From: Escherichia coli
GTDB taxonomy: Bacteria > Pseudomonadota > Gammaproteobacteria > Enterobacterales > Enterobacteriaceae
Direction: 5' to 3' (one strand)
NCBI RefSeq assembly: GCF_003334305.1
Contig: NZ_QOWS01000002.1
Length of the DNA stretch: 64,000 bases
A program made the position numbers. Every line of letters begins with the position of its first letter. Within the stretch, counting starts at the first letter, position 1. Of this stretch, positions 29,001 through 32,000 are shown in pieces.

Positions 29001-32000
29001 AGTAACGGACGGAAGAAACTGTCCGGGTCGTTACTGTCCGTCGCCCAACCGGATAACGTCAGATCATGGCTCATATCCATCAACCGCGCCTCCTGAAAGC
29101 GACCTTCTACCGGCACAATCACCACTTTTACGCCAACCTGCGCCATATCCGCCTGAATCAGTTCGGCAGTTTTCAGTGGACTGGGGTTCCACGCCTGCGA
29201 ACGTGTGGGCACCCACAGTTTCAGCGTTAAGTTTTCCAGCCCCAACGCCTTCAACTGTTCGCGCGATTTCGCCGGATTGTATTCAGTAATTTTAGCCTCG
29301 TTGTCATAGGCCCACGAGGCGCGCGGTAAAATAGAGGCCGCCGTTTCAGCCGTACCATAATAGATGGATTGCATCAGGCGCTGGTTATTAATCGCCAGTG
29401 CCAGTGCATGGCGGACAGCGGGATTATTTAGCGGCGGTTTGGCGGTGTTAAATGCCAGATAGGCGACGTTCATCCCAGGACGCAGCGTTAAACGCAAGCG
29501 CGGGTCGTCACGCAAAATGGATAGCTGGCTGGCAGCAGGCCAGGCCAGAACGTCGCATTCCCCGGTCAGGAGTTTCGACAGACGTCCGGTGCCGCCGGAG
29601 CCTAAATCCACCACTACCTGCGGCATTAACGGTTTACCGCGCCAGAAGTCATCATGACGTTGTAGGCGAATAAATTGCCCGGCGCGGTATTCCGACAACT
29701 GATACGGACCGGTGCCGACCGGTTGACGGTCGAGTTGCTCCTGGCGATCTTCTTTCTCTAACTTCCGGGCATATTCTGCCGACATGACCGAAGCATAATG
29801 GGTTGCGAGGTGCCACAAAAAAGAAGCATCCGGCTGGGCGAGTCGGAACTCAACGGTATGATTATCCAGTTTGCGGACGCTTTTCACGTTATCGGCAAAT
29901 TGCAGGCTGTCGAAGTAGGGGAAGTTGCTGCCGTTGACGTTATGCCACGGGTTGTTGCGGTCAAAAATTCGCTGGAAGGTAAACACCACATCGTCGGCAT
30001 TCATTTTACGAGTGGGAGTAAACCAGTCGGTTTTTTGAAACGGAACATCGCGACGCAGGTGGAAGCGATAGGTCGCGCCGTTGTCGAGTACTTCCCAGCT
30101 TTCGGCAAGTTCCGGCATCAGGCGATAGGTATAGGGATCGACATCCAGCAGTCGATCATAAAACTGGGCGGCAAGGGTATCGACAATTAACCCACTGCTC
30201 GCTTTGGATGGGTTAAAGGTGTTGACTTGCCCGCTGACGCAATAGACAAAACCGCTGTCGCGGATATCAGCATGCGGGGGGGATTCAGGCGCGGCGATTG
30301 CCTGACCACTCACAAGTCCAGCAATCACCAAAAGAGACGATAATACCTGGCGCATAATATTAAGGGATTTTATGTAAAGAGGCTATCTTACTAATATTTA
30401 ATGACATTTGCCATTACCGTTTGTGTTCAGGGGTCGTAATGAGGGCCGTGTGGTTGGTCGTTGAACAGGTGGCGTCGCCATCTGTTCAACATTCGTACCC
30501 GTGATTTCTCTATAACTATAACTCACAGAACAACTTAGCGAGGAGCAGAGCGGTACGATCGTGAGAAACCCATTAAAGCACGCTGCAGTGCGTGTCATTG
30601 TTAGCCGGATGCGGCGTGAACGCTTTATCCGGACAACGATACTGACCGATCGTCTGCAATTAAATAATTACTCATTACCCCATTGATTCAAAAACTCTGC
30701 GATCTCATCAATGCGTACGGGATTAATCCCCGCTTCAGCAGCCATTTCATGTTGGGCTTCTTCGCTGATCTCTTCATTGTTCATCAAACGGGTGAGCAGT
30801 AACTGGAAGTAGTGGGCCAGCGGTGTGCGTTCAGCCTCTGCGACAGGCTCTGCGCATTCGGTCGCGTACTCATCGGCAATATCAAAATATTTTAGCGGGA
30901 TATCGTGGTTCATTATTTGCCCCTGGGGTTAATGCGCTAAGCATAAGGGCGGATGATAGCACTCGTGATCCGGGTCATACATCTTTTTATAGTTAATGGC
31001 GCGGCGCGTTACCCTCAGGCAGGATAATGCGCCGCGCATCCGGCTATTACGTTTCGCTCACCGGCGTTCTGTCACCTTCGTACAGCGGCACTTTGCGATA
31101 GCGGCGGATCAGATACCACAAATATGCGCCGCCTAACGAAGCCCATACCAGACCGAGTGTCAGTGACGTTGACTCTAGGTTAACCCACAGCACACCCACC
31201 GTCAGCGCGCCAACCAGCGGCATCAGCAAATAGTGGAAGTGTTCCTTCCAGCTTTTATTCATTCCTTTACGCCGCCAGAAATGATTAAACACCGACAGAT
31301 TCACGAAGGTAAACGCCACCAGAGCACCGAAGTTAATCAGTGCTGTCGCGGTGACTAAATCGAAGAACAGCGCCGACAGCGCGACAATCCCGACCATAAT
31401 GACGTTGAGTGCCGGGGTCCGCCATTTTGGGTGCACATAGCCAAACACGCGCTCCGGAAACACATTGTCACGTCCCATCACATACAGCAGACGCGACACG
31501 CTGGCATGTGAAGCCAGGCCAGAGGCTAACGTGTTCACAAACGTGGTGCAGAGGAAAATCGACTGGAAGAGCTTGCCGCCGACGTACAGCGCAATTTCAG
31601 GCAGTGCGGCGTCCGGGTCTTTAAAACGGCTGATATCAGGAAAGAACAGCTGCATAAAGAACGACGCAGCGATAAAGATAACGCCGCCGTATACCGCCGT
31701 CAGGAAGATGGCTTTCGGGATCACGCGTGCGGCGTCCGGCGTCTCTTCCGAAAGCGTGGTCACCGCATCGAAACCGAGGAACGAGAAACAGACAATCGTC
31801 GCCCCGGTAATAATCGGGATCAGGTGCGCGTTCTCGCTGATAAACGGCTGAAGTGACCAGACGGTGCCAACGCCTTCTCCTTTATGCAGTCCCTGAACTA
31901 CCAGGAAGATAAACACCACCATGATGGAGATTTGCACCAGTACAAACAGGGTATTGAAGTTAGCGACCAGGTTGACGCTCTTCAGATTCGCGGCGGTTAA

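What the first reader, a model, noticed from the sequence alone, without database searches (positions are those of the whole stretch)
30460..30490. Perfect 9-bp inverted repeat in the sapA upstream leader
GTTGAACAG-(13 nt near-palindromic loop GTGGCGTCGCCAT)-CTGTTCAAC lies about 105 nt upstream of the sapA start and about 180 nt downstream of ymjA. It has no U-tract on either strand, so it is not a simple terminator; it is a candidate protein-binding site or RNA structure controlling sapABCDF.
Basis: seen in the sequence. Interest (0 to 1): 0.3.

Follow-up and report, generated by a model that had tools for sequence, protein, structure and literature searches.

The report
Strain-variable RNA hairpin marking transcript end
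The inverted repeat between ymjA and sapA is real, but it is a young hairpin specific to E. coli and variable between strains; it most likely caps an RNA 3' end without a U-tract upstream of the main sapA promoter, which is an ordinary kind of element and not a conserved regulator of the sap operon.

Summary
The repeat is at window 30460-30490 as described. It extends to 14 of 15 pairs, and no shuffle of the 64-kb window produced one as good.

The window is E. coli. ymjA, the repeat and sapA are all on the minus strand. Published transcript maps for strain K-12 change the picture:
- The proximal sapA start site (window 30378) lies downstream of the repeat.
- A distal start site (30508) puts the repeat at +19..+49 of that leader.
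- ymjA-sapA read-through RNAs cross the repeat.
- A published table of RNA 3' ends lists a "sapA 5' UTR" terminus at 30451, 9 nt past the stem, with no U-tract.
- The 80 nt from the 3' arm onward are rich in C and poor in G.

This matches the known class of stem-loops without a U-tract that protect the 3' ends of Rho-terminated or processed transcripts.

Conservation argues against a dedicated regulator:
- The 3' arm is broken in sister Escherichia species.
- There is no counterpart in Citrobacter, Salmonella or Enterobacter.
- E. coli itself carries four common alleles (-11 to -22 kcal/mol).
- No pair shows a compensatory change, and polymorphism is not depleted.

I found no support for a protein-binding site. 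Interest is low.

The parts
30460..30490 (-). Hairpin of 9 bp + A.C mismatch + 4 bp with a GAC loop, on the ymjA/sapA-sense RNA. It lies at +19..+49 of the distal sapA transcript and -82..-112 from the proximal start site.
   Evidence: printed with its fold in the table of RNA 3' ends of PMC10687069
30446..30459 (-). Published cluster of RNA 3' ends, with the dominant end at 30451 (NC_000913.3 1357206), 9 nt past the stem. It is annotated as premature, in the sapA 5' UTR.
   Evidence: PMC10687069 Suppl. Data 3, LB RNAtag-seq: signal 0.596, adjusted p 2.6e-4, 6.1e-12 and 1.9e-10, longest U run 2; coordinates converted
30401..30480 (-). Tract rich in C and poor in G (35-42% C, 17% G, C/G 2.0-2.5) that starts in the 3' arm. 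It is a candidate Rho loading region.
   Evidence: [quoted passage not shown]
30508..30520 (-). Distal sapA promoter P2: start site G at 30508 with the -10 element TATAGT at 30520..30515.
   Evidence: SMRT-Cappable-seq start site 1357263 for b1294|b1293|b1292; sequence; only 1 common SNP in 30491-30547
30378..30413 (-). Proximal sapA promoter P1: start site at 30378, -10 TAAGAT at 30390..30385, -35 TGGCAA at 30413..30408. It lies downstream of the hairpin.
   Evidence: SMRT-Cappable-seq start site 1357133; sequence; conserved in Escherichia and Citrobacter; no common SNP in 30356-30424
30597..30640 (.). REP-like palindromic element just 3' of ymjA (context only; not part of the hairpin).
   Evidence: repeat I1; Rfam naRNA4/REP match below threshold, 25.6 bits
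30668..30913 (-). ymjA. Its transcripts start at about 30944/30946 and either end at the hairpin or read through into sapA.

Best explanation
The repeat acts as an RNA hairpin on the minus (ymjA/sapA-sense) strand. Transcripts from the ymjA promoter and from the distal sapA promoter P2 cross it. A fraction of these stops or is cut in the untranslated, C-rich and G-poor stretch just downstream, most likely through Rho. The 3'-to-5' exonucleases then trim the RNA back until the hairpin blocks them, which leaves a stable 3' end 9 nt past the stem. The remainder reads through into sapA.

The hairpin therefore defines the practical 3' end of ymjA mRNA and of a 58-nt P2 leader RNA. It also partly insulates sapABCDF from upstream transcription. 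Most sapA transcription can bypass it from the proximal promoter P1.

The element arose recently in E. coli by point mutation of an older imperfect palindrome, and it is under weak selection at most.

Shown: the hairpin, the 3' end, the start sites, the read-through RNAs, the base composition and the lack of conservation. Inferred: Rho involvement, exonuclease trimming and any insulating effect.
For: - A stable hairpin forms on the sense strand: -17.1 kcal/mol for the window allele and -14.4 for K-12; z = -4.0 in context.
- A published 3' terminus has its peak at 1357201-1357214 and its dominant end at 1357206, which is window 30451. It was significant in 3 LB libraries, is annotated sapA 5' UTR, and has a longest U run of 2.
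- The same table lists no separate ymjA 3' end in the stored part.
- SMRT-Cappable-seq start sites at 1357263, 1357133 and 1357699/701, together with ymjA-sapA(-sapB) read-through operons, show that the hairpin is transcribed and is not a tight terminator.
- C/G is 2.0-2.5 for the 80 nt starting in the 3' arm.
- Dar & Sorek 2018 describe this class: Rho-dependent transcripts end immediately 3' of stable stem-loops without U-tracts, C exceeds G downstream, and the ends are trimmed by PNPase and RNase II.
- The sapF end of the same operon shows the same geometry, with a U-less palindrome and a 3' end 8 nt past the stem.
Against: - Rho dependence and exonuclease trimming are not tested here.
- The Term-seq supplements of Adams et al. 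2021, as held, list no sapA or ymjA 3' end.
- The authors of the table of 3' ends estimate that up to about 15% of premature termini could be PCR-duplicate artefacts. The terminus is of modest rank (1540).
- The hairpin is not conserved: 0 of 14 pairs show a compensatory change, 7 of 14 vary only by losing pairing, and pairing is no better than in column shuffles.
- A common allele (22 of 69 sampled sequences; consistent with about 19% of complete genomes) has a U.U mismatch in mid-stem, at -11.2 kcal/mol.
- Any selected function must therefore be weak or dispensable.
Confidence: 0.55

Rival explanations
1. It is a neutral palindrome. An ancestral imperfect inverted repeat drifted into a near-perfect one in some E. 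coli lineages. It has no selected role, and the nearby 3' end is incidental or a library artefact of a structured region.
For: - One fixed substitution on the E. coli lineage (G to T at stem position 27) completes the 9-bp arm. Sister species carry 8 of 9 or fewer.
- Four common alleles span -11 to -22 kcal/mol.
- Common SNP density is 4 per 31 nt in the hairpin against 20 per 281 nt in the rest of the spacer.
- There is no covariation.
- The authors report an artefact rate of about 15% for premature termini.
Against: - The 3' end is reproducible in three libraries.
- It sits at the same 8-9 nt offset as the sapF primary terminus.
- The combination of a stable U-less stem, C over G downstream and a 3' end fits a described mechanism.
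- 0 of 20 window shuffles gave such a palindrome.
Confidence: 0.25
2. It is a DNA operator. A dimeric transcription factor, for example the neighbouring putrescine repressor PuuR, binds the two TTGAACA half-sites. This would block P2 transcription or modulate P1.
For: - The arms are perfect 9-bp inverted repeats.
- TTGAACA also occurs in a PuuR box of the puuA-puuD spacer (AAAAAATATTGAACA, 34292-34306).
- sapBCDF exports putrescine and lies next to the puu cluster.
- XRE-cupin factors bind palindromes as dimers.
Against: - A matrix built from 4 PuuR boxes scores the best arm 4.3, against 12.6-22.3 for the true boxes. That arm ranks 409th in the window and the other arm is not in the top 2000.
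- The spacing between half-sites is 15 nt, against 3 nt in the puu pair.
- Only the left half-site is conserved in Escherichia. The right arm decays, and a common allele mutates the left arm.
- No binding data were found.
Confidence: 0.07
3. It is a signal-responsive attenuator. Translation of a short upstream ORF that overlaps the hairpin (AUG at 30492 or 30481, the latter encoding a Pro-rich peptide MATPPVQRP...) would control hairpin formation and Rho access, tuning sapABCDF to polyamines or to translation stress.
For: - Two short ORFs start inside or next to the 5' arm.
- A 3' end in the 5' UTR and a C-rich tract are present.
- Citrobacter carries an ATG-led short ORF at the homologous place.
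- Polyamine-sensing leaders of this type are known for other E. coli operons (my own knowledge: mdtU-mdtJI, speFL).
Against: - The common allele B introduces a stop in both ORFs: AGA to TGA at 30483 and CGA to TGA at 30460.
- The Citrobacter ATG is ACG in Escherichia.
- There is no convincing Shine-Dalgarno sequence, and the start codons are buried in the stem.
- The ORF lengths vary from 7 to 28 aa.
- P1 bypasses the element.
Confidence: 0.08
4. It is a plus-strand element. The hairpin would belong to an antisense RNA opposite the sapA leader, where it is more stable because a G.U wobble replaces the A.C mismatch.
For: The + strand fold is -25.2 kcal/mol, against -21.0 for the - strand in the 51-nt context.
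Against: - No + strand start site or 3' end was retrieved.
- No U-tract follows the hairpin on the + strand.
- The K-12 allele weakens the + strand fold more, from -21.2 to -15.4.
- The only mapped 3' end is on the - strand.
Confidence: 0.03

Closest known systems
Protective stem-loops without U-tracts at the 3' ends of Rho-dependent E. coli transcripts (Dar & Sorek 2018, PMC6061677; hypothesis of Peters et al.)
   Same: A stable stem-loop, no U-tract, a steady-state RNA 3' end a few nt past the stem, and C exceeding G immediately downstream.
   Different: Here the end lies between two co-oriented genes and inside a 5' leader, with substantial read-through. Rho dependence and trimming by PNPase or RNase II are untested. 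The stem varies between strains.
Premature 3' ends in E. coli 5' UTRs (Adams et al. 2021, PMC7815308)
   Same: A 3' end inside the leader of a transporter operon, giving a short leader RNA (58 nt from P2).
   Different: It is not listed in that study's held supplements. No regulator, uORF or sRNA function is shown. A second promoter downstream bypasses it.
Intrinsic (Rho-independent) terminator
   Same: The stem-loop has comparable energy, and the 3' end lies 8-9 nt past the stem.
   Different: There is no U-tract (longest U run 2) and the stem is not GC-rich. Full-length read-through transcripts are seen.
REP/BIME elements acting as 3' stabilisers
   Same: An intergenic palindrome that can block 3' exonucleases. 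A true REP-like copy sits 107 nt upstream, at 30597-30640.
   Different: It has no similarity to the REP consensus. It is single-copy per genome (median 1 place) and Rfam gives no hit on it.
Palindromic operator of a dimeric repressor (e.g. PuuR boxes in puuA-puuD)
   Same: Perfect 9-bp inverted half-sites, with a TTGAACA core shared with one PuuR box.
   Different: It lacks the A/T-rich part of the box, the spacing is wrong, the matrix rank is poor, and the second half-site is not conserved.

Membership tests
Protective stem-loop of a Rho-dependent or processed 3' end (Dar & Sorek class) | Steady-state RNA 3' end immediately downstream of the stem-loop | tested here: met
   Published terminus at 1357206, 9 nt past the stem, found in 3 libraries. 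It comes from one dataset and has not been replicated independently here.
Protective stem-loop of a Rho-dependent or processed 3' end (Dar & Sorek class) | Energetically stable stem-loop | tested here: met
   -14.4 kcal/mol for K-12 and -17.1 for the window allele over 31 nt; z = -4.0
Protective stem-loop of a Rho-dependent or processed 3' end (Dar & Sorek class) | No U-rich tract after the stem | tested here: met
   The tail is GACCAACCA; the terminator scan found 0 sites; longest U run 2
Protective stem-loop of a Rho-dependent or processed 3' end (Dar & Sorek class) | C-over-G enrichment (rut-like) just downstream | tested here: met
   C/G of 2.0-2.5 in 60-nt windows spanning 30480-30401
Protective stem-loop of a Rho-dependent or processed 3' end (Dar & Sorek class) | Read-through increases with bicyclomycin (Rho dependence) | not testable with these tools
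   No bicyclomycin data for this site could be retrieved
Protective stem-loop of a Rho-dependent or processed 3' end (Dar & Sorek class) | 3' extension in pnp or rnb mutants (exonuclease trimming) | not testable with these tools
   The supplementary tables of PMC6061677 are not held
Intrinsic terminator | GC-rich stem followed by a 7-8 nt U-tract | tested here: not met
Intrinsic terminator | Efficient termination (little read-through) | tested here: not met
   ymjA-sapA and ymjA-sapA-sapB full-length capped reads; terminus signal of 0.596, below the values near 1 seen for strong terminators in the same table
REP/BIME repeat family | Similarity to the REP consensus and many copies per genome | tested here: not met
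   Rfam hits fall only on the neighbouring 30567-30655 element; median of 1 place per genome
Conserved cis-regulatory RNA structure | Structure maintained across relatives, with compensatory changes | tested here: not met
   0 compensatory pairs; 80.7% of cells paired, against 81.9% in shuffles. Sister species fold to -5 to -10 kcal/mol. No homologous hairpin in 80 enterobacterial loci. No Rfam family.
PuuR operator | Match to the 15-bp box AAAATATAATGAACA (motif recalled from memory; exact copies confirmed in the puuA-puuD spacer of this window) | tested here: not met
   The best arm matches 9 of 15 positions, scores 4.3 and ranks 409th

The most novel reading that the evidence does not exclude
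The hairpin could be a naturally variable 'valve' between ymjA/P2 transcription and the putrescine-exporter operon. The common E. coli alleles (-11, -14, -17 and -22 kcal/mol) would then set different levels of Rho-dependent termination or read-through into sapABCDF, giving lineage-specific tuning of polyamine export. The effect might depend on conditions such as translation or polyamine state.
Probability: 0.1. Interest if true: 0.45.

Novelty: new member of a known kind. Interest (0 to 1): 0.2.

Why it matters
The importance is modest. The result gives the ymjA-sapA spacer a concrete transcript map: two sapA promoters, read-through from ymjA, and a 3' end bounded by a hairpin. It shows that the conspicuous palindrome is not a conserved operator or riboswitch-like element. 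It also gives a small example of how a 3'-end-protecting stem-loop can arise from an imperfect palindrome by one or two point mutations and stay polymorphic within a species. If the alleles do change read-through into the putrescine exporter genes, that would be a simple natural system for studying leaky terminators without U-tracts.

Tried and rejected
- **Rfam.** A scan of 30200-31000 at E <= 10 gave nothing on the hairpin, only sub-threshold REP/naRNA4 matches next to it.
- **Consensus scan.** The sigma-70 and terminator scan found 0 sites. The promoters came from published start sites instead.
- **Shimada 2014 promoter.** The predicted ATGACA-15-TTTAAT is upstream of the hairpin but matches none of the SMRT-Cappable-seq start sites, so I treated it as prediction only.
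- **Literature on transcription-factor binding at sapA/ymjA.** No usable data. The BoltzNet supplements are not held, and the ChIP-exo supplements list ymjA only as a differentially expressed gene.
- **Other literature.** The Adams 2021 supplements have no sapA or ymjA entry. The Dar & Sorek tables and the Sugiyama 2016 paper are not held. Searches for 'sapA.5UTR' and for sapA with bicyclomycin were uninformative.
- **Other strains in the table of 3' ends.** Searching for the B-allele RNA sequence, to see whether the 3' end disappears when the stem is weakened, found only the K-12 row.
- **uORF hypothesis.** Rejected as a conserved feature because the common allele B truncates both ORFs.
- **PuuR-operator hypothesis.** Rejected on matrix rank and spacing.
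- **Convergent hairpin upstream of sapA in other genera.** Nothing at the homologous place.

Full report
**Observation.** The window is E. coli. The 341-nt ymjA-sapA spacer is 100% identical to several complete genomes and is present in 5422 of 5426 of them. puuP (31047-32486), ymjA (30668-30913) and sapA (28712-30355) all lie on the minus strand.

The reported repeat is exactly at 30460-30490. It extends inward to 15-nt arms with one mismatch, which gives 14 pairs and a 3-nt loop. Only three palindromes of this quality occur in the 64 kb, and none occurred in 20 shuffles. Both strands fold far better than shuffled controls: -25.2 kcal/mol (z = -5.1) for the + strand and -21.0 (z = -4.0) for the - strand. 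No U-tract follows the hairpin on either strand.

**Where it sits in transcripts.** The conversion is window = NC_000913.3 - 1326755, checked on the sapA and ymjA ends and on an ungapped alignment. SMRT-Cappable-seq (Yan et al. 2018, PMC6131387, Suppl. Data 2) lists four minus-strand start sites:

| NC_000913.3 | Window | Transcript |
|---|---|---|
| 1357133 | 30378 | sapA, sapABC (proximal promoter P1) |
| 1357263 | 30508 | sapABC (distal promoter P2) |
| 1357699 / 1357701 | 30944 / 30946 | ymjA-sapA and ymjA-sapA-sapB |

- The sequence fits these sites. TATAGT lies at -12..-7 of the 30508 start, and TGGCAA-17-TAAGAT precedes the 30378 start.
- The hairpin is therefore +19..+49 of the P2 leader and lies inside the ymjA read-through RNA, but it is 82-112 nt upstream of the P1 start site.
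- It is a "leader" element for only part of sapA transcription. It is also not a tight terminator, because capped full-length reads cross it.

**A published 3' end.** The TRS study (PMC10687069, Suppl. Data 3, LB RNAtag-seq sheet) lists a minus-strand 3' terminus.
- The peak is 1357201-1357214 and the dominant end is 1357206.
- The signal is 0.596, and the adjusted p values in three libraries are 2.6e-4, 6.1e-12 and 1.9e-10.
- It is annotated as premature in the sapA 5' UTR, and the table prints this same hairpin (-18.3 kcal/mol) with a longest U run of 2.
- I checked how the table's sequence windows relate to the 'dominant' coordinate using the thrL rows. The end is the A at window 30451, which gives a tail of GACCAACCA 9 nt past the stem.
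- No separate ymjA terminus appears in the stored part of the table.
- The same table places the sapF primary terminus 8 nt past the other large palindrome of the operon (window 25002-25046), again without a U-tract.

**Composition.** From the 3' arm onward, about 80 nt are 35-42% C and 17% G. Dar & Sorek 2018 (PMC6061677) describe this configuration for Rho-dependent transcripts: precise steady-state 3' ends immediately after stable stem-loops without U-tracts, C over G downstream, and ends generated by PNPase and RNase II trimming back to the stem. Four of six defining features of that class are met here. Bicyclomycin sensitivity and exonuclease dependence could not be tested.

**Conservation.**
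- *Other Escherichia.* I scanned one genome per species for SapA loci and aligned their upstream regions. The 5' arm and the P2 and P1 regions are conserved, but the 3' arm is not. It reads CAGTGCGAC in E. whittamii and CAGTGCAAC in L007, and L005 carries two disruptive changes. Sense-strand energies there are -5 to -10 kcal/mol, against -17 for the window.
- *Other genera.* Citrobacter has homologous sequence but no palindrome (-2.8 kcal/mol). In Salmonella, Enterobacter and many others, pspF abuts sapA and the region is unrelated.
- *Within E. coli.* A metagenome scan with a conserved 20-mer gave 61 more Escherichia loci. Among 69 sequences the 31-mer has four main alleles:

| Allele | Count | Change (sense strand) | Sense-strand energy (kcal/mol) |
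|---|---|---|---|
| A (K-12) | 22 | C19U, giving a G.U pair | -14.4 |
| B | 22 | A8U, giving a mid-stem U.U mismatch, plus C31U | -11.2 |
| C (this window) | 13 | none | -17.1 |
| D | 6 | C22U, giving a perfect 14 bp | -21.8 |

- *Complete genomes.* Only 1653 of 5426 are identical to the window over the central 61 nt. About 1050 lack any shared 28-nt word, which is consistent with allele B.
- *Polymorphism.* Common SNPs are not depleted in the hairpin: 4 in 31 nt, against 20 in the other 281 nt of the spacer. The P1 region (30356-30424) has none.
- *Covariation.* A formal pair count on the 10 distinct Escherichia alleles gives 0 compensatory pairs. Seven of 14 pairs vary only by losing pairing, and 485 of 500 column shuffles reach the observed percentage of paired cells.
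- *Origin.* The perfect 9-bp arm results from a single G-to-T change, fixed in the E. coli lineage, on an older repeat that matched at 8 of 9 positions or fewer.

**Alternatives examined.**
- *Transcription-factor operator.* No binding data were found. The TTGAACA core is shared with one PuuR box in the puuA-puuD spacer. However, a four-site matrix ranks the best arm 409th in the window, the half-site spacing differs (15 nt against 3 nt), and only one half-site is conserved.
- *uORF-controlled attenuator.* Two short ORFs begin at 30492 and 30481, but the common allele B puts stop codons in both. The ATG seen in Citrobacter is ACG in Escherichia.
- *Known RNA family or repeat family.* There is none.
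- *Plus-strand element.* No transcript evidence supports it.

**Conclusion.** The palindrome is real and most likely works as an RNA hairpin that bounds a 3' end without a U-tract, for ymjA mRNA and for the distal sapA leader, with partial read-through. The likely route is Rho-dependent termination or cleavage downstream, followed by exonuclease trimming. It is a new, already tabulated but undiscussed, member of a well-described class.

It is specific to E. coli, variable between strains, and bypassed by the proximal sapA promoter. It should not be regarded as a conserved regulator of sapABCDF. The main uncertainty is whether the 3' end has any selected function at all.

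Noticed in passing
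window 30393-30407 (+), inside the sapA P1 promoter spacer (30391-30407): AATATTTAATGACAT resembles the PuuR box (11 of 15 positions match AAAATATAATGACCA). A rough four-site PuuR matrix ranks it 13th of about 128,000 positions in the window. It lies between the -35 and -10 elements of the proximal sapA promoter, in a block with no common SNPs that is conserved in Citrobacter. It could be a PuuR operator on the putrescine-exporter operon.
   Followed up: partly
L011, L014-L016, L020, L028, L046 etc., about -141 to -127 upstream of sapA (homologous to window ~30495): Citrobacter and Lelliottia loci carry an ATG-led short ORF (MN[FIVA]DQ[VA]..LN..RL.., 7-28 aa) with many third-position differences. 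It sits where E. coli has ACG followed by the 5' arm of the hairpin. It may be a leader peptide that was lost in Escherichia.
   Followed up: partly
L024, L030, L037, L040, L051, L052, L057, L062, L065: -80 to -36 upstream of sapA: Genera in which pspF abuts sapA (Enterobacter, Lelliottia, Leclercia) share a different inverted repeat, GCACTTACC...GGTAAGTGC (-14 to -19 kcal/mol), in the sapA promoter region.
   Followed up: no
window 30597-30640: A REP-like palindromic element lies immediately 3' of ymjA (Rfam naRNA4 match of 25.6 bits, below threshold). It is highly polymorphic among E. coli.
   Followed up: partly
window 25002-25046: An 18-pair palindrome lies at the sapF end of the operon. 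The published primary 3' terminus (NC_000913.3 1351749) is 8 nt past the stem and also has no U-tract.
   Followed up: partly
window 61386-61420: A 16-pair palindrome, AATATGCCTGATGGTGCAACACCATCAGGCATATT, lies between two apparently convergent genes. It is probably a bidirectional 3'-end hairpin.
   Followed up: no
window 34197-34211, 34292-34306, 34369-34383, 34310-34324(-): Four PuuR-box-like sequences lie in the puuA-puuD spacer, two of them facing each other with a 3-nt gap. I used them as the training set for the matrix.
   Followed up: partly
L022, L008 and many others, compared with the window: The ymjA-puu cluster lies between pspF and sapA in E. coli, whereas pspF directly abuts sapA in Salmonella and many other genera. 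The sapA promoter region differs completely between the two arrangements.
   Followed up: no
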